Positions 19,855 through 32,854 of a DNA stretch of 64,000 bases are shown piece by piece. The stretch comes from Promethearchaeota archaeon (GTDB lineage: Archaea; Asgardarchaeota; Lokiarchaeia; Sigyniarchaeales; SOKP01). The stretch covers positions 32,001 to 96,000 of the forward strand of contig JAEOTA010000081.1 of the NCBI GenBank assembly GCA_016840085.1, in the 5' to 3' direction. The notes beneath the pieces are model-generated. The model made no database searches and was not told the origin of the DNA. It worked only from the letters and a program-made list of their open reading frames with translations. The position numbers were made by a program, and so were the translations under genes. Position 1 is the stretch's first letter; every line of letters starts with the position of its first letter.

Positions 19855-20047
19855 TTTCTTATCTATCTCTGTTATTTTGTTCTATTAATTATAGTTTAAT
19901 TTAAGATATACATCTTGTCATTAATTTGTTAAATTAAAACTCAATAAATAAATAATGGTGGCTAAAATAATAATTTTTTGAAGAAAAATTCCTTTTTCTT
20001 CTAATAATTAAATCTTAAAATTAGTAAAAATGGTCCCTCCCCCCGGA

Positions 20048-20076
20048 ATCTAGCTAGATCTGAAGTAGATCCGTAT
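20048..20076 (-). other. tRNA intron in the T-loop, position 59/60 (29 nt)
   Basis: Relaxed BHB: CTCG/CTAG helix, bulges AA|A and AT|T; inner hairpin GGATCT/AGATCT; removal restores a 7-nt T-loop. Confidence 0.85.
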
Positions 20077-20098
20077 TTCGAGCCGGGGACCGCTCGGT

Positions 20099-20153
20099 TT
20101 CAATTTCGGCTGACGTAACTTCATTAGCTACCAGCTTTAGTACGCGATATTAT
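20099..20153 (-). other. tRNA intron at canonical position 37/38 (55 nt)
   Basis: Relaxed BHB: CTGT/ATTG helix, bulges AG|A and AA|A; internal hairpin GCTGG-TAGCT...AGTTAC-GTCAGC. Confidence 0.9.
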
Positions 20154-20472
20154 CTACAGCCGAGCACTCTGACCACTGAGTTAGGGAGGGGATGTGTTTT
20201 AAAATTATATAATAATTTAATTAATTTATTTTTTATGATTTTCAATTTAGAGTAAATAATAACAAGAATTATTTTATTCTATACTTTTTTTAATACTCAT
20301 AAATAACCCTCTTTTGTTTAAGAAAACTTATTAAACAAAAAATTTTCCTATATTATTAACATAAAAATTTCCAATAAAAGATCGCAAAATACTTTTGTTG
20401 TGAAAAATTTAATTAATTAATGAATAGTTTTATAAAATTAAACTAATATTTTTTTAAGAAAGGTGATGAATA

Positions 20473-21012
20473 ATTAGAGAAGAGACTGATTATACAGAAT
20501 CTATTGAGAGTTATAAAAACGATCCAAACGTTATTCTAGAACCATGGGGTAGAAGTATAGATCATTTACGATTAACCATTATTGGTAAAAAAGGAACACC
20601 TTATGCTGATGGAAAGTTCGTTTTTGAAATCAAGTTCCCTGAGAACTACCCGTTCGCTCCGCCCTACGCTTACGCAGTTACTTTAATGTGGCACCCTAAC
20701 ATTGATTCATCTATTCCACCAGGGAAATTGAATATATGTTTAGATTTAATTAATCCAGATTTAGTAGGTAAAGTTGATGCGAGTACAGGAGCAAGCGGAT
20801 GGACACCTTCAAAAACTCTAACTAATATTATTGAAGCACTGAAGGGCATGATGCATATAGAGTTATGTGAATATCTCGCATAACGTGTAAAGCCGCCCTT
20901 CTTTAATCCTGGCGATCCCCTTAATCATGAAGCAGGTGAACAGTATTTTCGTGCTTTAAAGAAATTTGAAGCTAAAGCTAAAAGCTGGACAGCCAAATAT
21001 GCCATCGACTAG
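20473..21012 (+). CDS. Ubiquitin-conjugating enzyme E2; exons 20473-20860 and 20891-21012; 169 aa if spliced; probable ATT start
   Basis: GTPYADGKF, FPENYPFAPP, WHPNI, catalytic ICLDLI, WTPS, and after the insert NPGDPLNHEAG..Y......F...AKSWTAKYA; SD AAGGTGAT at 20460-20467. Confidence 0.92.
20861..20890 (+). other. Putative BHB mRNA intron in E2 (30 nt, in-frame TAA)
   Basis: Central helix ATAT/GTGT, bulges AG|A and AA|A, 9-bp inner stem GTTATGTGA/TCGCATAAC, outer GC/GC plus GAAGGGC/GCCCTTC; splice gives HIE-PPFFNP. Confidence 0.85.
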
Positions 21013-21026
21013 AGGAATTTAACTAT

Positions 21027-21058
21027 CTTTTATTTCCTATTTTTATTTTTTATGTTTT
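21027..21058 (+). terminator. T-rich archaeal-type terminator after E2
   Basis: Several oligo-T runs immediately after the E2 stop. Confidence 0.45.
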
Positions 21059-21210
21059 AATTTATTTGGTTTAAGAAATTCAAACTCATATTTCATAGAT
21101 TAGCTCATATCTCATAGATCACCTGTTATTATTAATAACCCAATTTCTTTAAATTGTTAATCCAAATATTTATTATAACGATTTGATTAAAGCAAATAAT
21201 TAATTAAAAA

Positions 21211-22092
21211 GTGGATTTATTGCTAAAAAAATCGACAGGGTTAAGATCTAAGGTTATAAAGATGGATAAATTTGATATCTCTTCTTTTACAGATATTTTA
21301 GCTGATAAGGCTGGAAAAATAATTCCAGAAATTTTCAAGGGTGTACAAAAAGCAAGAAGAGATTATAAAAATGAAATTAAAATACTTCCAGATGAGATTA
21401 AATATGCATCTGCAGAGTTATGGGAAGAGATTATTGGAAAAGCAATATCATTGGGAATAGATTTAATAGGATTTGCTCCTATTGATGAGAATTTAATTTT
21501 TGAGAATGATTATGTTGGTGGAATCGAAATGTTATATGAAAACGGAATTGTATTAGGTATGGAAATGAATTATGATGCAATAAATACTGCACCTAAACCC
21601 CCAGCAGGTTTAGAATCATTAAGAATTTATGCGGAATTAGGTAATGCTACGAATAAATTAGTTGATTTTATTCGTTCAAAAGGATATAAAGCAATTGCTT
21701 GTCATCCTTTAGGTGGTCCTATACTTTATCCCGCAATGGCAGTTAAAGCAAAATTAGGAAAAATAGGAAAGCAGGGTCTTTTAATCACAAAAAAGTATGG
21801 TCCCCGGCAAAGGTTATCTATTATTGCAATAAATGCTACTCCCCTTCCTGAAAATCAATGTGAAGATTTTGAAATTTCTGAGTTTTGTGAGAGATGTAGA
21901 AGATGCATTCATTTTTGCCCTGTTAATGCAATTTTTGAAGATCCTCTTGTCAAAAAAAATGGAACAATAACCCGAATCGATAGCAACAAATGTTTTGAGT
22001 ATTTTTACGAAACTACTGGTTGTTCAGTATGTATTGAAACATGTCCCTTTCATAAAATTGGTTCTGAAGTACTTTATTATAGACAGCTATAA
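21211..22092 (+). CDS. Epoxyqueuosine reductase/reductive dehalogenase-like 4Fe-4S protein
   Basis: AVKAKLGKIGKQGLLITKKYGPRQRL, FCERCRRCIHFCP, C...CSVCIETCP. Confidence 0.85.
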   Translation: MDLLLKKSTGLRSKVIKMDKFDISSFTDILADKAGKIIPEIFKGVQKARRDYKNEIKILPDEIKYASAELWEEIIGKAISLGIDLIGFAPIDENLIFENDYVGGIEMLYENGIVLGMEMNYDAINTAPKPPAGLESLRIYAELGNATNKLVDFIRSKGYKAIACHPLGGPILYPAMAVKAKLGKIGKQGLLITKKYGPRQRLSIIAINATPLPENQCEDFEISEFCERCRRCIHFCPVNAIFEDPLVKKNGTITRIDSNKCFEYFYETTGCSVCIETCPFHKIGSEVLYYRQL

Positions 22093-22126
22093 CAAATTCC
22101 CTAAATTATATTTAAATTAAGTAAAC

Positions 22127-22747
22127 ATGCGAAATATTTCTTTTAAAGATAAGAAAGTAATCATTTTTGATTTAGATGGGACTATTGTATACTTAAAAGC
22201 GGATTGGATATCTTTGAAAAGAAAACTAGTTGAAAAATATAATAAGCTTTATGATGATTATTGCAATTTTGATAGCGTGTCTGTATGTCTTAGTAAAATA
22301 GTAGAAAGAGAAGATGAAAAAGCGCTTGCAGATTTCATTAAAATTATTCGCCAGTATGAACTTGAAAATATCGAAGAAAACAAACCAATTAAAGAGTCAA
22401 TTTTTTTTATTAATAATAAAGAGTTATTTGGTATAGAAGAAAAGAGTAAATTCGTAATTTTGTCTCTTAATACAAGAAGTACTATAATCAAATCATTAAA
22501 ATTAGCGAAAATATTCAAAAAAATTGATTTTATAGTAGGAAGAGAGGATGTCCGAAAATGGAAACCAGATCCAGAAGGAATTTTTAAAATAAAAGCTCAT
22601 TATAATTTGAGAAATGAAGAAATGATTTATTTTGGGGATTTGGAAAAAGACATGATAACTGGGAAAAATGCTGGTATTGAAGCTTACTATATAGATGATT
22701 TAATTAATCTTGTTAATAAAAAGAAGTCTGGATTAAAAACTATCTAA
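22127..22747 (+). CDS. HAD-superfamily hydrolase (phosphoglycolate phosphatase-like)
   Basis: FDLDGT, KPDPEG, GD...D...GKNAG. Confidence 0.9.
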   Translation: MRNISFKDKKVIIFDLDGTIVYLKADWISLKRKLVEKYNKLYDDYCNFDSVSVCLSKIVEREDEKALADFIKIIRQYELENIEENKPIKESIFFINNKELFGIEEKSKFVILSLNTRSTIIKSLKLAKIFKKIDFIVGREDVRKWKPDPEGIFKIKAHYNLRNEEMIYFGDLEKDMITGKNAGIEAYYIDDLINLVNKKKSGLKTI

Positions 22748-22767
22748 ATTTGTTCCATAATAAGTTA

Positions 22768-23313
22768 TTAGATTTTCATAAAGGTAAAGACTTCATCCTT
22801 TTTTTCAATATATTTGAACAAACCATAATTAGTTACTTTTGTAATAATTTGATCGTCCTTTAGATGATGGTCATCAACTGATAACCATCCATTATCTTTT
22901 AAAACTCGATACAATTCTCTTAAAATATTTTCTGGATCTGATAAGTGATGAAAAATATCCAATAAAAGAACTACATCAACGGTATTATCTTCTAGTTTTG
23001 TATTACATTCAGTTAGAATTGTTTCAATATTACAAAGTCCTCTTTTTTCTGCTCTTTTTTTGACATCTTCAATAGCTAAAGGATGAATATCAGCTGCATA
23101 TACTTTTCCTGTCTTACCAACTGCCTCTGCTGCGGCAATAGTATAACTCCCTGGACCACATCCATAATCTAATACAAAATTTCCTTTTTTTATTTTAGTT
23201 TTTTCTATTTTTAGATTTGGTGGATAGTTTTTATCACGTTTTTCAAAATGTTTAATCATAAATTTAAAATGAGTTTTGCTCATGGGTTTATCTTTTTCCC
23301 TTTTTTCTGGAAT
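22768..23313 (-). CDS. Class I SAM-dependent methyltransferase; start uncertain (ATT 23313 or ATG 23283)
   Basis: VLDYGCGPG, VYAADIHP, VDVVLL, LYRVLK..G; SD GGGGTG 6 nt before ATT. Confidence 0.88.
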   Translation of the reverse strand: MPEKREKDKPMSKTHFKFMIKHFEKRDKNYPPNLKIEKTKIKKGNFVLDYGCGPGSYTIAAAEAVGKTGKVYAADIHPLAIEDVKKRAEKRGLCNIETILTECNTKLEDNTVDVVLLLDIFHHLSDPENILRELYRVLKDNGWLSVDDHHLKDDQIITKVTNYGLFKYIEKKDEVFTFMKI

Positions 23314-23363
23314 TACTAACACCCCTATTTTAAATATTAATATAAGAATAAAAAAATGGAATT

Positions 23364-24977
23364 TCACATAAAAGTGATTATAACATTATATTTTTTAATC
23401 TCTGATTCTGCTAGTGCTTTTCCCAAAGGAGTTAACATAATTATATCATTTGATTTTATTTTTACTGAAGTTAACTTAATATCAGGATCTTTTAGTGAAG
23501 GCATGTACGGATTCCAATAAATCTCTTTAGTCATTGGATTAGTAATCATCCAAAATTCTGGATCTAGTTTGTGTCCTGAAACTTCCATTGCGTTAAATAT
23601 ATAACCAATATCAGCGTCAAAAGGCACTACAATTTGTACATTTTCTTCACCTTCAATCTTTCCACATGCTAAACAATCATCTCTTTTTATGATGTTTAGA
23701 TGATCAAATTGACCGTAAATGCCATTGTAATTCACATAGGGAGGATCCATCGGAGATCCAATATTTCTGCTGTTAACTCGAAATAATAGTTTGAGTGCTT
23801 CTTGAGATTGGATACTTGCAATTACGGAACTAACTGTTTGGATTGCTGCTATTTTATTTCCGAGAATATTTTCCATTTCTTCAAATTTGTAATCTGGACC
23901 AAAAGTGTTTCTGATATTATTTTTCCATTCTTCAATCTCTGCTTCAGTTAATGTATCTCTTTTCTCTGGAGATACATTTTCATTAAATACTCGCTCTCTT
24001 AATTGTTCTAACTCCTCTTGAGCTAATTCTTTTAGTTTAAGAACGTCAACATTTAAATTAAGATCAGGTTTATGTCCATATTTTTTTTCAAAATTAACTT
24101 CAGCTTTTATAACACAATGATTTCTATTACGGGGTAACCCTTTTAACGTGCACGCTGCAACTAATTTATCGTCAGCTGGAGGAATTGGAACTAAGCATCT
24201 ATAACATGGAGTTTGATCTAAAAGTTCGGGGGCATATTTCCAATCAAAAACCATTTCAATCTCTCTTCTGAATTTTTCTTTTAATGGATTAATTTTTTCT
24301 TCATTTAACCGTTCTATTTCTTCTTCTAGGTCTTCAATTCTTTTCTGGGCTTGAAAATATTCAGGGTATTCCATTTCAGTAATTTCCCAAAGTCTTGCTT
24401 CTACTAAATTATCGATCTCTCTTTCTTTATCTTTATATTGTAAACCAGAACCCTCAGGGATTACAATTTGAACATGACCTTCAAAAGCATGTGTAGCTCC
24501 TTCGACCATAGGTTTTTTTAGTCTAAGACAGATTTTATTTAAGTCCAATCTAGCATTAAAATTATCTAATGCTCCTATAACTACATCTGCTTCTTCATAT
24601 ACAGCCATAGGTAATTTTTGAAGCTTTTCAAAATAAAAATCAACTTTTAGAAAAAGATTCATTTCTTTCAATCGTTCTGCTGCCACTTCAGCTTTAGGTC
24701 GTCCCTCATCTCCCGGTTTAAATAGCATTTGTCTAGATAAATTTGAGGTTTCAATAGTATCTAAATCCACTAAGATCAGTTTACCTATACCCATCAGAGC
24801 GAAATCTTTTGCGATTTCACAGCCCTTCACGAAAATTATTGTTTATAATATTCCTAATGCGCCTACTCCGATGATTAAAATACATCCCTTATTTATAACA
24901 TCTTGATCCCAGCCATCAATTAATTGTTGTCGGGCATACATGCGCGACTTAACAAAATCTTCTACTTTTTCAGTCAT
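23364..24977 (-). CDS. Ubiquitin-activating enzyme E1 (Uba2/Uba3-like architecture); exons 24977-24855 and 24824-23364; 527 aa if spliced
   Basis: YARQ...GW.Q..I....ILIIGVGAL|GCEIAK, DLDTIETSNLSRQMLF, KAEVAA, LDNFNAR, CYRC, catalytic ACTL...PRN..HC, CLAC, C-terminal ubiquitin-fold-like domain. Confidence 0.92.
24825..24854 (-). other. Putative BHB-like mRNA intron in E1 (30 nt, in-frame TAA)
   Basis: Central helix GCAT/GTGA (one G-A mismatch), bulges TA|G and AG|G, inner stem GAATATTAT/ATAATTTTC, outer GGC/GCT; splice restores GVGALGCE. Confidence 0.8.
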
Positions 24978-25074: not shown

Positions 25075-26460
25075 CCCTTTATGAAATCAAAATTCTATTC
25101 TTTATTTTAACTATGAAATCGTAATAGAATATGGGTGTAACCCTACACCCTCTATCCCATCTGCCAATATGGCTTTTGGGACTGCTTTTTTAAGGATATT
25201 ATATGCACCATTTACATCCGCATTGATAATAATCCCTTCTTGACTGTGATATAAACCCCTACAAATACGCTTTCCTTGAAATTTTTCATGTTTTTTTATA
25301 GATTCATTATCTAAGAAACTACATCTCGAAGTGAAAGATTCTGGCTCTAATATAACATCAATCTCGATTAACTCTGATTTATATTTAATTTGGGACATAA
25401 ATTTGGAAAAAGGAATTTGGACAAAGTTTTGGTTATTACGCTTTCCAATTTTTATTTTATGTTTCCAAGATTTATTATAACCAATGACTATCGTTCCAAA
25501 ATTGTGGTTAATGCAATAATTTATCACTGCTCTCGAAATTTTATGGAAGATATCATTAATTTTATTGTTTCTTTTCCGGGTTAGCCATTGCATTCTTTTT
25601 GTTTCAGAACCGATCCCTTGCTTATCCTTTTTGCTTTTATATCTAGCAAGTTGTTTGTTGTAGAATTGATTAATAGATTTCACAACACCACCTTTAATAA
25701 CAACAGGTTGTAACCCCGCATTATTTACCATAGTTATGATATTGTTCAACCCCAAATCAATCCCAATAACTCTCTTTTTATCTAAATTCAAATTTTTTAC
25801 TTCCTTTTTATAAATAATTTCTAAGATATAATATAATCCTTTTGGAATAATTCTGACGTGGTGTAATTTACTTTTTATACGGGTTTTAACGGGAGGTAAT
25901 TGAGTTTTTTTCGGGAAATAAAGAAAAGCTCCCTTGATCATGCATTGTTGATTCGTAAAAATAATCATACACTCGCCATCTTTCTTTTTGTAACGTGGCG
26001 GTTTTGGAGATCCTAAGTAATTCTCTGGCTGCTTTTTGTGGTTTTTAAGAGATTGGAAAAATGATTTCCAATTTTTATCCACGAGTTTTAAAATTTGCTG
26101 AGCAGTTTGTGAAGGGAGCTTTTTATATGGTTCTTTCTCTTTTAGCATATACCATAAGTCGTAATATCTCAACCAATTACCTAAATAAAAAAACTCTTGT
26201 CTCACATAATAATTGGCAAGATTATAGAGATTTTTAGATAAATGACATAGATAAGATAATTGTGGAGTGTTCTTTAATTGAATCTGTTCTGTTAACCTCA
26301 TTTCCATAATATTGAAGGAGAATTTCAGATTTAAAAGAAAAGAGACTGAAGATTTATATTTGATAAAAGAATTTAAAAAAATTAAGGGAAATTAAGAATT
26401 CTCTAGAGATATAAAAAGTATATAGAAAATGATACGTATTAAGCCTATAAAAAAGTATAA
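25075..26460 (-). mobile_element. Solo-tnpB (IS1341-like) element without tnpA; boundaries approximate
   Basis: tnpB alone; 3' hairpin GGGTGTA-N4-TACACCC (25133-25150); direct repeats TATAAAAA(A)GTATA at 26410 and 26446. Confidence 0.6.
25111..26307 (-). CDS. tnpB: TnpB RNA-guided endonuclease (IS200/IS605/IS607 superfamily), rearranged RuvC type
   Basis: SKNLYNLANY, GIDLGLNN (RuvC-I), IVIGYNKSWK, EPESFTSRC, NADVNGAYNI (RuvC-III). Confidence 0.95.
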   Translation of the reverse strand: MEMRLTEQIQLKNTPQLSYLCHLSKNLYNLANYYVRQEFFYLGNWLRYYDLWYMLKEKEPYKKLPSQTAQQILKLVDKNWKSFFQSLKNHKKQPENYLGSPKPPRYKKKDGECMIIFTNQQCMIKGAFLYFPKKTQLPPVKTRIKSKLHHVRIIPKGLYYILEIIYKKEVKNLNLDKKRVIGIDLGLNNIITMVNNAGLQPVVIKGGVVKSINQFYNKQLARYKSKKDKQGIGSETKRMQWLTRKRNNKINDIFHKISRAVINYCINHNFGTIVIGYNKSWKHKIKIGKRNNQNFVQIPFSKFMSQIKYKSELIEIDVILEPESFTSRCSFLDNESIKKHEKFQGKRICRGLYHSQEGIIINADVNGAYNILKKAVPKAILADGIEGVGLHPYSITIS

Positions 26461-26485: not shown

Positions 26486-29400
26486 TTAAGTTTTTTTACT
26501 TTTATCAGCTTTTTTAATCATTTTTTTAAGATTATCAATTTCTTCCCTTTCTTTAGCTTGTTTTAATCTTTTTTGTTCTTTCTTCTTTTCCATTTCCTTT
26601 TTCTCAATCTCATCTATAAGTTCTTGTTTAATTTTAATCAAATCACTCATTTTCTTACTGAATTCTTTTGCTTCATCTTTGATTTGTTCTTTTTGCTTTT
26701 TTTCTTTTAATTTTGCTTTACTCCGTCCCTCTTCAATCATTTTCATAACTTTATCTGTATCAATACTAACTTCACTAATTGCTTGTTTCATTTCGGCATC
26801 TTTAGATTCTCTTCTACTTTTTTCTAAGGACCTTTGTTTTTCTAATTGCTTTTGAATTTCATTAATTCGTGATTCCTCGGCTTTAACTCTTTCTTCCAAA
26901 ATCTTAGCATTTTTTATTTCGGTTTCAATATATTTTATCTCTTCTTTCCATCCAATTTCTTTAAATTTAGAAATAGCTGTATTGAACTTTTCATAAGCAT
27001 TTTCAAAATCATGATACGCTGCTAATCTCTTTCCATCATCAATATATTTTAATCCTTCATCTCTAATTTGATCAAAATGTTTCTTTTTAACAAATAATTC
27101 TCTATATTGTTTTTCTTGTCCACGCTTCAGTTGTTCTTGTTCCAATCTTTTCCTTCTTACCTCTTCTTGAAACTTTTCATATTCTATTTGTCTTTGTATT
27201 CGAGCCTCTTCCTCTAACTTCTTCTTTTTAATATAATTAACTTGTTCTTGTTGTAAATCTTTGATTAATGCATTTAAATTATTTATTTCTGGTTCCCATC
27301 CTATATTTTCAGCTAAAATATTTCTTGCTTGGACATATAAAGAAATTGCATTATTAAAATCTGGATTAAGTTGTTTCAAGTATTTTCCGGCTTCGTCGAG
27401 CAAAGAATAAGCAGATTCCCTGACAGTCATTTGTTCTTGAATCATTCTTTCCCTTTGTTTTTGAGCTAATAATTGTGCTCTTTTCTTTTCTTCTTCTTGC
27501 CTTTTTCTTTCATCTATAAGAATTTTTAATGCTTTTTCTTCTTCTAATTTCTCAAATTCTTTCTGAAATTTTAATTCTTCTTGTTCTACTTCTTGCTTCT
27601 TTAATTTATTAACCTTAAGAATCATATTATTAATAGAATCTGTTGGAAACTGTAATTCATTCAAGATTAATCCTGCTTTTCTATATCTTTCAATAGCGTT
27701 TTCATAATTCGATGCTTTTAGAAATTTCTCTGCATCATCAAGGATTTTAAATGCAGATTCTTTCCTCTTCTCAAGTCTAGCTTTCAATTCTTCTTTCTCC
27801 TGGATCTCGATTTGCTTATTCTGTAATCTTTCTCTTTCGTTTTTAAAAAAAGTAGATATTTGTTCTTCAAACTCCCACACCTCTCTTTCTCTCTGTATAC
27901 TGAGTTCTAAATCCTTTTGTCTTTGTAATTGATGGTCTTTTTTCTTCTCTCGGACTTTTTGAATTGTTTCTCTAATTGCTTCTGTTGGGAATGAAATTTC
28001 GTTTAAAATTAATTCTGCTGTATGATAATATTCAAGTGCTTTATTATATCGCGCTTGATTCATATATATCTCTGCTTCATCTAGTATACTAAAAGCCTCA
28101 TCTTTTCTCTTTTCCATATAAGCACGATGCTTTTTTTGTTTTTCAAGTTCATTCTGCTGACTCTTCATTCTCAATTCATTAATTTTTATGCTTTCAGCTA
28201 TTTTTTGTTGAAAATCAAATTGTTCACGCTCTTTCTGAAGTTTAGATTCTAACTCCATTTGCTTTGTAGTTATTTCTTCCCTACTTTTCATTTGAACCTT
28301 ATAAATCATATCTCTAATCAAATTTGTTGGAAATCCTATTTCACTTAAAATTAATTCTGCTTTATGATACATTTCAGTTGCTTTATCATATTCAGCTTGC
28401 TTTAACAACTTTTCAGCAAGATCCATAATCTCAAAGGCTTCTATTTTACGTGATTCCATTTTCTGTAATAAATTTTCGCGTTCTTGTATTTTTAATTCTT
28501 TTAATTCTAATCTTTTCTTTTCTCTTAACATACTTTCAGAGATCTTTGATTGAAATTGTTGTTGTTCTTGTTGTTGGTTAATCTTCAATTCTTGTTCTAT
28601 TTCTTTTTGTTTTTCTAAATCTCTCTTTCTCTTTTCAATTGTATTTATCGTATTAGTTAATAACTTCAGATATTCACGGGTCCAACCTATTTCAGTTAAT
28701 ATATGAATCGCATGTTGATAACTTACTAATGCATTATCAAAATCTTTGTGTTTAACTGATTCATACCCATTATTAATTAAATTAAAAGCTTCTTGTTGCT
28801 TGACTAAATTTTGAGCACTTATGAGTTTTTGACTTTTTAAATTTTCTTCTTCTTCTATTGCCATTGCTCTTTCTTTCTTTCTGTATAATTTTATTTGTTC
28901 CATAAACTCATAATTCGCTTTTTCCTTATCTATTGATTCTTGTAGTAATTTTGCCTTTTGTATATCATCTTCTCTCTTTTTTTTCATGATATTCTGAATT
29001 GCATTTTCAAGAATGGGTATTTCATCGTCCCATTGAATTTGGGCAAAATTGTTTGCAACATCTCGATATATATCAATTGACTCTTCAAATCTTCCTTTCG
29101 AGAGTAAATCTTGAGCTTTATCCAATAATTTAAAACCCTCTTCTCTTTTTTTCTCTCTATATACTAATTCTTCTTCTTTTTTTCTTAATTTTATCTCTCT
29201 TTGTCTTAATTTTTCACGTTGAGTTTTCATTTCTTCTGATATAAGTTCATGAAATAATTTTTCTTCCTTTTCTCGCTCAAGACTTGCTTTTAATTCCATC
29301 TGTTTTTTAACTTCCATCTTATATTTTTTATTCTCAACCTCATTAATAGATCTTTGAATTAAATCAATTTCATCATGCCATTGAATCTCTGTAAAAATAT

Positions 29401-32400
29401 CCGTAGCGTTATAGTATACTGTGATTGCTTTATCAAAATCATTTTGTTCAATATGTTTTTGTGCTTCTTCTAAAAGTTTGAAAGCTTCTTCTTTTCTCTT
29501 TTCAGTTATTAATCTAATTTCTTCCAGTTTTCTCAGTTCCTCTTGTTTTTCTTTCATTTTAAGCTGTTCTAATTTCATTTTTTCTGTTATCTGTTGTTGG
29601 AATAGGCGCTCTTCTTGTTCTCTTCTAAGATTTAATTCGAGTTCTTTTAATTTATTCAAATCATCATCTCTCTTTTTCTCCTGGATTTTTTGAATCATTT
29701 CTCTGATAATAGTTGTAGGAAAAAAAATTTCATTGAAAATTAATTCTGAATTACGATAAAGTTCAATTGATTTATCATATTCACTTTGATTTAATAACTC
29801 TTCAGCTTGATCCATAATCTCAAATGCTTCTATTTTACGTTTTTTCATTTTTTGTAACAAATCTTCACGTTTTTGAACTTCAATTACCTTAGAGTTTAAT
29901 CTTTCTTTCTCTTTTCGTATATAGTTTGAAATTTTATTTTGAAATTGTTCCTCTTCTTTTTGACGGTTTAATGCAGCTTCAAATTCTATCTGCTTTACCT
30001 TTTCCTTTCTTTCTTTGCTTTCTTGAATAGATTGAATTGTGTCTTTTAGTAATTTTAAATAATCTTCTCGCCACCCTATTCCTTTTAAGATATTTATTGC
30101 ATTTTCATAATTTTCTATAGCTTTCGCGAAGTTTTCTTCTTTGAGAATATTTTCGGCTTCTTCAATAATATTAAATGCTCTTTCTTGTTCAACTAAATTT
30201 TGGGCTGAAATTTTTTTCTGTTTTTCAAGTATTTTTTGCTCTTTTAATGCTTCTACTTTTTCTCTTTCTCTTTGAAGTAGAATCTTGTTCATAAAAGCTT
30301 TATCAACAGTTTCTTTTTCAATTGCCTTTTGTAATAATTTTTGTTTATAGAGTTCATTCTCTCTCTTTTTCTCTTTTATATCCTCTATTGTAGTTTGAAT
30401 AATTGGAATTTCTTCTGTCCATTGAATTTGAGCAAAGATATTGGCTACATCATAATATATTTCAAGAGTATTATCAAACTTTCCAAAAGAAAGGAAATTT
30501 TGAGCTTTTTCTAGCAAATCAAATGCTTCATTCTTTTTATTTGCTTGATAGGCTCTTAAATTCTCTTTTTCACTTAATGCAATTTCCTTTTCTTTCAATC
30601 TTTCACGTTGAGCTTTCATTTCTCTAGTGATGAGCTCTTGAAACCTTTTTTCTTCCTTTTCATGCTCAAAATCAGCTTGAATTTTCAATTGTTTTTGTAA
30701 TTCGGCCTCTTTTTTCTGATTTTCAATTTCTATAATAGAATTTTGAATTAAGCTTATTTCGTTTTGCCAATTCGCATCTGCAAAAAAATTGATAGCATAT
30801 TGCAATATTTCAATAGCTTTATCAAAATAACCTTGTTTTAAATTATCCTGTGATTCCTCTAATAATTTAAAACCTGATTTTCTTCTTTCTTCACGATATT
30901 GTAATTCTTTTTCCCGTCCTCTTAATTCAATTTCTTGTTTTTTCAGTTTTTCTCTTTCTTGTTTTAAATATTTTGTAATTTGCTTTTGAAAATCTTCTTC
31001 TTTTTTTTCTCTTTCTAAAGTTTCTTGCATCTTTTTTTGTCTTAAAATCTTTTGATCACGTTTTAGTTCTTCAACTTGATGTATAGAATTTTCAATCAAA
31101 GGAATTTCCTCAGTCCATCGTATTTCAGCAAAAATATTGCCTGCATTTTGGTACTCCTCGATTGCATTATTATATTCACCTCTTTTAACGAAACTTAATG
31201 CTGAATCTAGAAATTCAAAAGCCTTTTTCCTCCGCTCCTTAAAATATTTTACTTCTTCCTCCTTTTCCTTTAATATGATCTCTTTTTTCTTTAAATGTTC
31301 ACGCTCTTTATTTAATTGAGTAGCAATTTGCTTCTGAAAATCAATTTCAGCTTCTTCCCTTTTTTCCAAACGTTTTTGGTCTTCATATTGCTTCTTGAGT
31401 CGAGAATCTTTTATCTTCTCTATATTTAATATTGTATTCTTAATTGTATTAATGTAAGTTTCCCACCCTGTTCCTAAATCTTCAAGAATTACCAACCCTT
31501 CTTTATATTCATTGATAGCTCTTTCAAAGTTTTTTTCTTTTAAAATTTCATCTGCTTTATCTAAAATTTTAAAGAGATCCTTCTCTTTTTCTGCATAATC
31601 TCTTTTTTTTAATTCAAATTCTTCCCTTTTATTCTCTAAATCTTTAGCAGATTCTATTGCTTGCTTCATTTCCTTTAAATAAATAGATTCTTGAACTCTA
31701 AATAATTCTCTTTCTCGTTTTTCTTTAAGACCCTCAGTTTTTTTCTCTCTTTCTTGTTTTTCCTTTATCCCATTTATTAAATTAATCACTGGTTGAATAT
31801 AAGAATCCCATTCTATTGATTTGAGGAGCTGAATCGCTTCTTCAAGTTTCTCGATTGCGTGATTATAATCTTTTTCTCTTTCAAACTTCTTTCCTATATC
31901 AATTAAATTGAAAGCTTTTATTTGTACTTGCTCTTCTATTCTCTTCTTTTCTTCAAACTCAATAAGTTTTTTTCTTTGTAAATCTGCTTCTGAAGTTAAA
32001 GCTTCTGATTCTCCCTCAATTTTACTAGATACCATTGAAATAGCTTGTTTTTGTTGAGTTTGAAAATTTTCAATATGCTCTTTATCTTTTCTAAGTTTTT
32101 CAATAATAGCTAAAATATTCTGAGTTTGGGCAATCCAACCTATAGAATTTAATAATTGGACTGCTTCTTTATAATTATTTATAGCGTTATCAAATTTCTT
32201 TTCCTTTTCAAATATCTTGGCTTTATCAATAAGAGAAAAAGCTTCATTTTGTACTTCTTCTTCACGTCTCTTTTGTTCTCTATATCTAGCAATCGTTTCT
32301 GCTTTTTCTGGAGTAGATTTTTCTCCAAACATTCCAACAATTTGAGGTGATTGTTCTACTTGCTGTTGTGAGATTTGTTCTGAAGATATTTTCTCTTGTT

Positions 32401-32854
32401 GTTGTTTTAATTGAAATTCTTGTTGTTGCTTAATATTATTTGCGAGTTTTTTTATTTTTACTCTCAGATTTTCTAATTGTACTTCAGGCCAACCCGATTG
32501 GGCTAATAAATTAATAGCTGACATGTATTGCTGAATAGCATCTTCATAAAAACCATTAGATTCTAACTCTTTTGCTCCTTCTAAAAGTGAAAAAGCTTGA
32601 TCTTGTACTTGTTCAATTTGAGCCTGGATCTGAGTATGTTCATAAAATTTTTCTTGTTTAAGAAAATTTTTTAATTCTTCTATTCTTTCATATATATCTT
32701 GAATTCTATGAGTTAAAATTCCGCTTTGCTTTAGGTATTTAGCAGCTTTTTGATAATGGGATATTGCCTTTTCTGCATTTTTTTCCTCTTCAAAATTTTG
32801 CGCAAGTTCTAAAAATTTTAAGGCTTCTTGAGCCAATTCGTCTGGATTTTGCAT
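26486..32854 (-). CDS. Giant helical repeat protein (~18 units of TPR/MIT-like hairpin plus charged coiled coil)
   Basis: Recurring AF.(L/I)(L/I)(D/E).A ... AI..Y..A..I...I.W about every 115 aa. Confidence 0.85.
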   Translation of the reverse strand: MQNPDELAQEALKFLELAQNFEEEKNAEKAISHYQKAAKYLKQSGILTHRIQDIYERIEELKNFLKQEKFYEHTQIQAQIEQVQDQAFSLLEGAKELESNGFYEDAIQQYMSAINLLAQSGWPEVQLENLRVKIKKLANNIKQQQEFQLKQQQEKISSEQISQQQVEQSPQIVGMFGEKSTPEKAETIARYREQKRREEEVQNEAFSLIDKAKIFEKEKKFDNAINNYKEAVQLLNSIGWIAQTQNILAIIEKLRKDKEHIENFQTQQKQAISMVSSKIEGESEALTSEADLQRKKLIEFEEKKRIEEQVQIKAFNLIDIGKKFEREKDYNHAIEKLEEAIQLLKSIEWDSYIQPVINLINGIKEKQEREKKTEGLKEKRERELFRVQESIYLKEMKQAIESAKDLENKREEFELKKRDYAEKEKDLFKILDKADEILKEKNFERAINEYKEGLVILEDLGTGWETYINTIKNTILNIEKIKDSRLKKQYEDQKRLEKREEAEIDFQKQIATQLNKEREHLKKKEIILKEKEEEVKYFKERRKKAFEFLDSALSFVKRGEYNNAIEEYQNAGNIFAEIRWTEEIPLIENSIHQVEELKRDQKILRQKKMQETLEREKKEEDFQKQITKYLKQEREKLKKQEIELRGREKELQYREERRKSGFKLLEESQDNLKQGYFDKAIEILQYAINFFADANWQNEISLIQNSIIEIENQKKEAELQKQLKIQADFEHEKEEKRFQELITREMKAQRERLKEKEIALSEKENLRAYQANKKNEAFDLLEKAQNFLSFGKFDNTLEIYYDVANIFAQIQWTEEIPIIQTTIEDIKEKKRENELYKQKLLQKAIEKETVDKAFMNKILLQREREKVEALKEQKILEKQKKISAQNLVEQERAFNIIEEAENILKEENFAKAIENYENAINILKGIGWREDYLKLLKDTIQSIQESKERKEKVKQIEFEAALNRQKEEEQFQNKISNYIRKEKERLNSKVIEVQKREDLLQKMKKRKIEAFEIMDQAEELLNQSEYDKSIELYRNSELIFNEIFFPTTIIREMIQKIQEKKRDDDLNKLKELELNLRREQEERLFQQQITEKMKLEQLKMKEKQEELRKLEEIRLITEKRKEEAFKLLEEAQKHIEQNDFDKAITVYYNATDIFTEIQWHDEIDLIQRSINEVENKKYKMEVKKQMELKASLEREKEEKLFHELISEEMKTQREKLRQREIKLRKKEEELVYREKKREEGFKLLDKAQDLLSKGRFEESIDIYRDVANNFAQIQWDDEIPILENAIQNIMKKKREDDIQKAKLLQESIDKEKANYEFMEQIKLYRKKERAMAIEEEENLKSQKLISAQNLVKQQEAFNLINNGYESVKHKDFDNALVSYQHAIHILTEIGWTREYLKLLTNTINTIEKRKRDLEKQKEIEQELKINQQQEQQQFQSKISESMLREKKRLELKELKIQERENLLQKMESRKIEAFEIMDLAEKLLKQAEYDKATEMYHKAELILSEIGFPTNLIRDMIYKVQMKSREEITTKQMELESKLQKEREQFDFQQKIAESIKINELRMKSQQNELEKQKKHRAYMEKRKDEAFSILDEAEIYMNQARYNKALEYYHTAELILNEISFPTEAIRETIQKVREKKKDHQLQRQKDLELSIQREREVWEFEEQISTFFKNERERLQNKQIEIQEKEELKARLEKRKESAFKILDDAEKFLKASNYENAIERYRKAGLILNELQFPTDSINNMILKVNKLKKQEVEQEELKFQKEFEKLEEEKALKILIDERKRQEEEKKRAQLLAQKQRERMIQEQMTVRESAYSLLDEAGKYLKQLNPDFNNAISLYVQARNILAENIGWEPEINNLNALIKDLQQEQVNYIKKKKLEEEARIQRQIEYEKFQEEVRRKRLEQEQLKRGQEKQYRELFVKKKHFDQIRDEGLKYIDDGKRLAAYHDFENAYEKFNTAISKFKEIGWKEEIKYIETEIKNAKILEERVKAEESRINEIQKQLEKQRSLEKSRRESKDAEMKQAISEVSIDTDKVMKMIEEGRSKAKLKEKKQKEQIKDEAKEFSKKMSDLIKIKQELIDEIEKKEMEKKKEQKRLKQAKEREEIDNLKKMIKKADKSKKT

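What the first reader, a model, noticed from the sequence alone, without database searches (positions are those of the whole stretch)
20031..24977. Candidate system: ubiquitin E1 and E2 both gated by 30-nt tRNA-type (BHB) mRNA introns
Seen in sequence: the first two enzymes of the ubiquitin cascade, about 4 kb apart, each carry an insert of exactly 30 nt. The inserts are unrelated in sequence, each contains an in-frame TAA, each folds as a BHB, and each restores a conserved motif when cut after the 2nd bulge nucleotide. No other gene in the window showed such an insert. A two-intron tRNA-Tyr lies ~280 bp from the E2. Established: BHB motifs are cut by the tRNA splicing endonuclease EndA and joined by RtcB; the well-known archaeal mRNA intron case is crenarchaeal cbf5. 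In eukaryotes, non-spliceosomal excision of a short intron (XBP1/HAC1, joined by tRNA ligase) controls proteostasis. Inference: ubiquitin conjugation here depends on EndA/RtcB, giving a coordinated post-transcriptional switch in a lineage close to eukaryotes. I know of no description of this in Asgard ubiquitin genes but could not search.
Basis: partly seen in the sequence, partly recalled or inferred. Interest (0 to 1): 0.97.

Follow-up and report, generated by a model that had tools for sequence, protein, structure and literature searches.

The report
tRNA-type mini-introns in Asgard ubiquitin genes
Two ubiquitin-pathway genes of an uncultured Asgard archaeon are each broken by a 30-base insert shaped like a tRNA intron and very probably spliced out of the message, but the same kind of insert is scattered through many other conserved genes of this family, so it is not a dedicated ubiquitin switch.

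Summary
Both inserts are real: E2 at 20861-20890 (+) and E1 at 24854-24825 (-). Each is 30 nt, carries an in-frame TAA, folds as a bulge-helix-bulge (BHB) and restores a conserved motif when cut as EndA cuts. The E1 insert recurs at the same site in 9 genomes with compensatory changes. The E2 gene carries 21 inserts at 7 sites in 15 of about 105 family genomes; 19 are BHB-shaped (shuffles: 3.5), and frame-shifting 29- and 32-nt versions occur at this genome's site. Exons are under purifying selection. mRNA splicing is therefore likely (about 0.85) but not shown. The proposed coordinated switch is not supported. Only this genome has both introns (1 observed, 0.96 expected by chance). EF-2 is interrupted more often (23 of 111). 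This genome has at least 9 such introns in unrelated genes. A second Ub-E1-E2-JAB operon probably lies in an assembly gap. Intron sequences cross genus boundaries, suggesting lateral spread into conserved motifs. In the papers I could search, only cbf5 has such an intron inside a coding sequence. This scan found the same intron class before on other Lokiarchaeia DNA, including this E1 site.

The parts
20031..20190 (-). tRNA-Tyr(GUA) gene with two intervening sequences; a neighbour that needs the same splicing enzymes
   Evidence: Read from the sequence; near-identical genes in 20 relatives, some lacking the T-loop insert, some with a third 30-nt insert. ARAGORN misses it.
20048..20076 (-). 29-nt T-loop intron of tRNA-Tyr
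   Evidence: Absent in two congeners (L016, L025), which show the 7-nt T-loop
20099..20153 (-). Anticodon-loop insert of tRNA-Tyr, about 55 nt (49 nt in most relatives); boundaries approximate
   Evidence: no clean BHB register was found
20473..20860 (+). E2 (UQ_con) exon 1 with the HPN motif and catalytic Cys; probable ATT start 6 nt after GGTGA
   Evidence: Pfam PF00179, E 7e-21; pN/pS 0.020/0.473 against the closest relative; start context the same in 4 relatives
20861..20890 (+). 30-nt BHB intron in E2 (codon 131, phase 1), in-frame TAA at 20881
   Evidence: same site in 8 other loci, five genera in all, lengths 29, 30 and 32 nt
20891..21012 (+). E2 exon 2: PPFFNP segment and C-terminal helices; no start codon of its own
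   Evidence: pN/pS 0.011/0.348 against the closest relative; contiguous with exon 1 in about 90 relatives
23364..24824 (-). E1 (ThiF fold, UBA1/UBA3-like) exon 2
   Evidence: Pfam PF00899, E 5e-49; the intact ortholog matches UBA1 at E 1e-41; pN/pS 0.035/0.381
24825..24854 (-). 30-nt relaxed BHB intron in E1, phase 0, inside the GxGxxG ATP-binding loop, in-frame TAA
   Evidence: same site in 8 other genomes, two genera, with compensatory changes
24855..24977 (-). E1 exon 1 (ATG 24977, 41 codons, ending GVGAL)
   Evidence: pN/pS 0.020/0.159 against the closest relative

Best explanation
Both inserts are tRNA-type (BHB) introns in protein-coding messages. The pre-mRNA folds into a 4-bp helix between two 3-nt bulges. 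The cell's two-subunit splicing endonuclease EndA cuts after the second base of each bulge and RtcB joins the exons, giving a 169-aa E2 and a 527-aa E1. They belong to a family-wide class of ~30-nt introns that are gained, lost and probably passed sideways between species at a limited set of highly conserved motifs. They are most likely removed constitutively by the enzymes that already serve the many tRNA introns, and are tolerated passengers. This genome is intron-rich and happens to carry one in each of two neighbouring ubiquitin enzymes. Shown: inserts, boundaries, fold, covariation, selection on exons, patchy distribution. Inferred: splicing in the cell, the enzymes, constitutive removal, lateral spread.
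For: Homology fixes the boundaries at the EndA register: 19 of 21 E2 inserts have a 4/4 central helix there, at most 3 of 21 at any shifted register (the register was picked among those tied on protein score, and the shuffle control allows the same freedom). Central-helix bases follow synonymous or conservative exon changes: A-U to G-C at the E1 site, four different pairings at the E2 site. Lengths of 29 and 32 nt at the same E2 site exclude read-through. Both exons of both genes have pN far below pS. RtcB and one EndA subunit are intact here; four congeners have both subunits, one with the Tyr-His-Lys motifs. Asgard EndA is reported as the two-subunit type with the loop linked to relaxed motifs (PMC5829648). 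Carriers of the E2 site-131 intron are rejected as one clade on the exon tree (AU p 8e-16). The G086 intron is 82-85% like those of two genomes of another genus, and this genome's is 73% like that of G140, also of another genus.
Against: No RNA data: no spliced read, cDNA or junction peptide was seen. The catalytic EndA subunit is missing from this assembly, together with its neighbour gene, which points to a gap but does not prove one. The E1 central helix has a G.A mismatch in five of nine genomes. One E2 insert (G111a, codon 128) fits the BHB poorly. A motif-only genome scan showed no excess over decoys, so shape alone proves nothing. Patchy distribution could also be one old gain with many losses. 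Regulated splicing cannot be excluded from DNA.
Confidence: 0.8

Rival explanations
1. Coordinated switch: EndA/RtcB activity gates ubiquitin conjugation through paired introns in E1 and E2, as XBP1/HAC1 splicing gates the unfolded-protein response.
For: Both genes are interrupted in this genome, as is a ThiS-type ubiquitin-like gene just before its Gly-Gly. E2 is an intron hot spot with 7 sites. The E1 motif is weaker than the E2 motif and could be cut less efficiently.
Against: Co-occurrence 1 observed against 0.96 expected. About four in five family genomes have neither intron. EF-2 is hit more often. The genes are convergent, not one transcript. A second E1/E2 pair is general in congeners and probably unassembled here. 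The same enzymes must mature tRNAs and EF-2 mRNA, so they cannot be turned down selectively without a further factor, and none was seen.
Confidence: 0.07
2. The introns are spliced but incompletely, and act as a general, non-specific brake that ties the output of many conserved genes to tRNA-splicing capacity. The unspliced E2 message may also yield a 137-aa E2 core without its last helices.
For: All introns seen sit in conserved core genes. Nearly all stop translation if left in. In Haloferax, removal of a BHB intron from a 5' UTR seems important for expression (PMC7714728).
Against: The set of interrupted genes differs between close species, which is not how a maintained regulon looks. A 35% sample of G006 shows no intron that this genome lacks.
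Confidence: 0.07
3. The ribosome skips or reads through the insert (bypassing or stop read-through), with no RNA cutting.
For: Both inserts here are 30 nt, in frame, and form hairpins.
Against: The same E2 site carries 29- and 32-nt versions. Pairing with the exon is conserved in the exact EndA geometry. Ten extra residues would sit inside the E1 ATP loop. The same 29-30-nt class occurs in tRNA genes.
Confidence: 0.03
4. Dead genes or an assembly artefact, with paralogs doing the work.
For: Intact paralogs probably exist in the assembly gap. The genome is a fragmented assembly with 7.6% contamination.
Against: No other lesion in either gene; pN far below pS on every exon. The same inserts occur, diverged and covarying, in independent assemblies. 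EF-2 and PurA carry the same kind of insert.
Confidence: 0.03

Closest known systems
cbf5 pre-mRNA intron of Desulfurococcales and Sulfolobales (Yokobori 2009, PMC2738675)
   Same: Short intron inside a coding sequence at a catalytic motif, BHB or relaxed BHB at the junction, cut by the two-subunit EndA, lost in some lineages.
   Different: cbf5 is one gene, one site, inherited from one ancestor, and splicing is shown. Here there are many genes, 7 sites in E2 alone, a narrow size class (29-32 nt, one of 39), patchy distribution among close species, signs of lateral spread, and no RNA proof.
Asgard tRNA introns (bioRxiv 10.64898/2026.10.13.758758)
   Same: BHB-dependent, repeatedly gained, same enzymes, arrival route unknown; the neighbouring tRNA-Tyr and a tRNA-Arg in this genome carry 29-30-nt inserts of the same build.
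   Different: That study covers tRNA genes only; the words mRNA, ubiquitin and cbf5 do not occur in its main text.
BHB intron in the 5' UTR of Haloferax volcanii HVO_1309 (Schwarz 2020, PMC7714728)
   Same: EndA substrate in an mRNA; removal seems to matter for expression.
   Different: It lies outside the coding sequence and is a single case; the present ones break the reading frame.
XBP1/HAC1 non-spliceosomal splicing (own knowledge)
   Same: Short mRNA intron, exons joined by a tRNA ligase, target linked to protein quality control.
   Different: XBP1/HAC1 is cut by the stress-activated nuclease IRE1 at two stem-loops and is conserved across its lineage. Here the motif is BHB, the predicted nuclease is a housekeeping enzyme, and most relatives lack the introns.

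Membership tests
Archaeal BHB (EndA/RtcB) introns | 4-bp central helix between exon and intron, flanked by two 3-nt bulges | tested here: met
   E2 4/4; E1 3/4 here and 4/4 in three genomes of genus g22
Archaeal BHB (EndA/RtcB) introns | Cuts after the second bulge base restore the product | tested here: met
   The joined protein matches intron-less orthologs without a gap
Archaeal BHB (EndA/RtcB) introns | Structure kept while sequence changes | tested here: met
   E1: 11 both-side changes, 0/500 shuffles, slid controls 24-44% paired against 87.5% (related rows can inflate this). E2: 19 of 21 against 3.5
Archaeal BHB (EndA/RtcB) introns | EndA able to cut relaxed motifs, and RtcB, encoded in the genome | tested here: inconclusive
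   RtcB and one EndA subunit found. The subunit with the catalytic His is in four congeners but not in this assembly
Archaeal BHB (EndA/RtcB) introns | Spliced RNA in the cell; cleavage by EndA in vitro | not testable with these tools
   No transcript data or bench assay
Regulated non-spliceosomal switch (XBP1/HAC1-like) | Intron conserved in the target gene across the lineage, and paired targets co-occurring | tested here: not met
   E1 8 of 105, E2 15 of 105, both in 1 of 95
Regulated non-spliceosomal switch (XBP1/HAC1-like) | Splicing induced by a signal through a dedicated nuclease | not testable with these tools
   No expression data; no such nuclease was looked for beyond EndA
Eukaryote-type E1 and E2 enzymes | ThiF adenylation domain with GxGxxG; UBC fold with HPN and catalytic Cys | tested here: met
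   The modifier they handle was not determined; no ubiquitin gene was noticed next to them

The most novel reading that the evidence does not exclude
One family of the archaea closest to eukaryotes hosts a mobile class of ~30-nt, structure-defined mRNA introns that spread between species into the conserved motifs of core genes, the ubiquitin E1 and E2 among them, and whose removal by the tRNA-splicing enzymes is rate-limiting under some conditions, so that it tunes protein output.
Probability: 0.15. Interest if true: 0.9.

Novelty: new variant of a known kind. Interest (0 to 1): 0.7.

Why it matters
The papers found report a BHB intron inside a coding sequence for one archaeal gene only (cbf5; PMC2738675, PMC7714728). 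Here 21 such inserts occur at 7 sites of one 170-codon gene, and at least 11 in one genome, in a lineage close to eukaryotes. If spliced, routine mRNA splicing by tRNA enzymes, with frequent intron gain and probable lateral spread, exists in Asgard archaea. That bears on how intron-tolerant gene expression arose. It gives presence/absence pairs among close species with which to test how such introns arrive, which a 2026 preprint calls the central open problem for Asgard tRNA introns. It also means that automatic annotation truncates or misses core Asgard genes, E1, E2, EF-2 and PurA among them. The ubiquitin-specific switch, which would have been the most striking reading, is not borne out.

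Tried and rejected
(1) Motif-only genome scan with ORF rescue: 3073 candidates against 2918 and 3088 frame-shifted decoys, no enrichment. A stricter filter gave 34 against 30 and 32 and was useful only where a known protein motif was restored. (2) My early reading that the E2 intron is private to this genome came from a small sample and was overturned by the family search. (3) A junction hit on contig C30 is a tRNA-Arg intron, not an mRNA intron. (4) The break in the G022 E2 is a run of N in the assembly. (5) A paper I recalled as reporting DPANN coding introns (PMC8784108) does not mention them in the held text. (6) Eight literature searches found no report of mRNA introns in Asgard archaea or in ubiquitin genes; subscription journals are not covered. 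(7) No solved structure matched the E2 at E below 1e-25. (8) No folding or complex prediction was run: the joined proteins have no reference and the question does not turn on fold. (9) Only 35% of one congener was sampled as reference, so the genome count is a lower bound.
Full report
Observation. The E2 gene (20473-21012, +) and the E1 gene (24977-23364, -) each carry a 30-nt insert with an in-frame TAA, at 20861-20890 and 24854-24825. The E2 junction folds as a full BHB: central helix 4/4, bulges AG^A and AA^A, 9-bp hairpin. The E1 junction is a relaxed BHB with a G.A mismatch in the central helix. Cutting after the second base of each bulge gives a 169-aa E2 and a 527-aa E1 that align without gaps to intron-less orthologs. 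Pfam places them in UQ_con and ThiF, and the intact E1 ortholog is closest to UBA1 among solved structures. The genes are convergent, with an Fe-S protein, a HAD hydrolase and a methyltransferase between them. The tRNA-Tyr 283 bp upstream of E2 has a 29-nt T-loop insert and an anticodon-loop insert of about 55 nt.

Organism. Two single-contig genomes of the same order have lengths (4,324,194 and 6,035,313) that I recall as those of the two cultured Lokiarchaeia. The assignment to Lokiarchaeia is therefore an inference from memory. Both have open E1 and E2 frames over the part searched.

The E1 intron in relatives. A pattern search over 118 family genomes found the insert at the same site, always 30 nt, in 8 genomes: four of this genus and all four of genus g22. 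G018, from the first sample, is a ninth. A full-length protein search showed no other interrupted site in E1. Across the nine, 87.5% of cells pair against 24-44% in slid controls; 11 cells change on both sides, reached by none of 500 shuffles. The central helix changes from A-U to G-C in step with a synonymous Ala codon change. Related rows can inflate such counts, so I read this with the E2 evidence.

The E2 intron in relatives. Of about 105 family genomes with the gene, 15 have interrupted copies, holding 21 inserts at 7 sites (codons 58, 59, 66, 76, 128, 131, 147). Lengths are 29 (2), 30 (10), 31 (3), 32 (5) and 39 (1). Nineteen have a 4/4 central helix at the register that restores the protein, against at most 3 at any shifted register. 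Nineteen meet a BHB rule that shuffled inserts meet 3.5 times on average, 9 at most. This genome's site (codon 131, phase 1) is used in nine loci from five genera, with lengths 29, 30 and 32, so read-through cannot explain it. The carriers are rejected as one clade on a tree of exon DNA with the inserts removed (AU p 8e-16; 54 rows, none left out). The G086 intron is 82-85% like those of G111b and G120 from another genus, though its exons lie among its own genus, and this genome's is 73% like that of G140. Lateral spread is the simplest reading; an old gain with many losses is not excluded.

Are the genes alive? Against the closest relative pN/pS is 0.020/0.473 and 0.011/0.348 for the E2 exons and 0.020/0.159 and 0.035/0.381 for the E1 exons. 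There is no other lesion. Decay and assembly error are unlikely.

Is it a ubiquitin switch? Among 95 genomes in which both genes could be read, 12 have only an E2 intron, 6 only the E1 intron, and 1 (this one) both; independence predicts 0.96. As a control, the first 170 codons of EF-2 carry a stop-bearing extra ~30 nt in 23 of 111 genomes (folded only for this genome). Comparison with a 35% sample of one congener found five more inserts here, in EF-2 (2), AMP phosphorylase and an 89-aa protein (2), and none private to the congener. That extrapolates to about 14 per genome, not counting shared ones. A filtered scan added PurA, a Ras-like GTPase, an acyl-CoA ligase and a ThiS-type ubiquitin-like gene, whose exons abut in their Pfam models or restore a known motif. 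With E1 and E2 that is 11 in this genome. Most sit in conserved nucleotide-binding or catalytic motifs. Most congeners have a second E2, lying in a Ub-E1-E2-JAB operon in the four genomes examined. This assembly breaks exactly there: C67 ends in the ubiquitin-like gene and C13 begins in the JAB gene, 2.1 kb apart in G024. An intact second pair is therefore likely but unseen.

Enzymes. RtcB is intact. One EndA subunit, lacking the catalytic His, is intact. The catalytic subunit is present in four congeners but missing here, along with its neighbour gene. As the tRNAs carry introns, a gap is the likely cause. Asgard EndA is reported to be of the two-subunit type with the loop linked to relaxed motifs (PMC5829648).

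Mechanism. Most likely the pre-mRNA folds locally, EndA cuts both bulges, RtcB joins the exons, and translation proceeds. Left in, the E1 insert stops translation after 44 codons and the E2 insert after 137. I put splicing by any regime at about 0.85-0.9, constitutive passenger behaviour at 0.8, and a coordinated ubiquitin switch at 0.07. How the introns arrive is not shown; recombination with intron-bearing DNA at conserved motifs would fit the pattern, but this is inference.

Comparison with the known. The closest case is the cbf5 intron (PMC2738675), described in 2020 as the only other mRNA example beside a Haloferax 5' UTR intron (PMC7714728). A 2026 preprint on Asgard tRNA introns does not treat mRNA. 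I found no paper on Asgard coding introns, within a library that lacks most subscription journals. Earlier notes of this scan describe the same class in at least 11 genomes, including this E1 site. They are unchecked leads; I tested the EF-2, ubiquitin-like and acyl-CoA ligase cases myself.

Verdict. The splicing reading is likely but awaits RNA evidence. The switch reading is not supported. This is a new variant of a known kind; interest 0.70.

Noticed in passing
window 20458-20475 (+): The E2 gene has no ATG/GTG/TTG start. GGTGA is followed 6 nt later by ATT, and four relatives checked show ATT or ATC at the same place. The 89-aa gene on C51 also has ATT where G006 has ATG.
   Followed up: partly
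G000 contigs C67 end / C13 start; L103 8361-10524: The second Ub-E1-E2-JAB operon of congeners falls in an assembly gap of about 2.1 kb, next to a repeated ubiquitin-like gene (further copies on C18 and C67).
   Followed up: yes
L242-L245 (congeners); G000 C79:3909: The catalytic EndA subunit and its MEMO1-like neighbour are missing from this assembly; only the His-less subunit is present.
   Followed up: yes
L257 (G000:C51:58189 and 58260): An 89-aa conserved protein with no Pfam match is split by two BHB inserts (30 and 38 nt).
   Followed up: partly
L255 (G000:C19:6047-6018, minus): A ThiS-type ubiquitin-like gene gets its C-terminal Gly-Gly only after removal of a perfect 30-nt BHB insert.
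   Followed up: partly
L225 (G111:C91) and L235 (G140:C3): Single E2 genes with three inserts each in 170 codons. G111 has a second E2 copy with a different insert, which may be contamination.
   Followed up: partly
window 26486-32854 (-): A 2122-aa repetitive, helical-looking protein upstream of E1 on the same strand; not examined.
   Followed up: no
window 25111-26307 (-): A TnpB-like ORF (by motif, own knowledge) directly upstream of E1.
   Followed up: no
L012, L014, L016, L020, L025, L062: The tRNA-Tyr of some congeners has a third 30-nt insert in the variable region, with or without the T-loop insert: presence/absence polymorphism like that of the mRNA introns.
   Followed up: partly
G000 C30:4281 (+): A tRNA-Arg(GCG) with a 30-nt T-arm BHB intron that G006 lacks.
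   Followed up: partly
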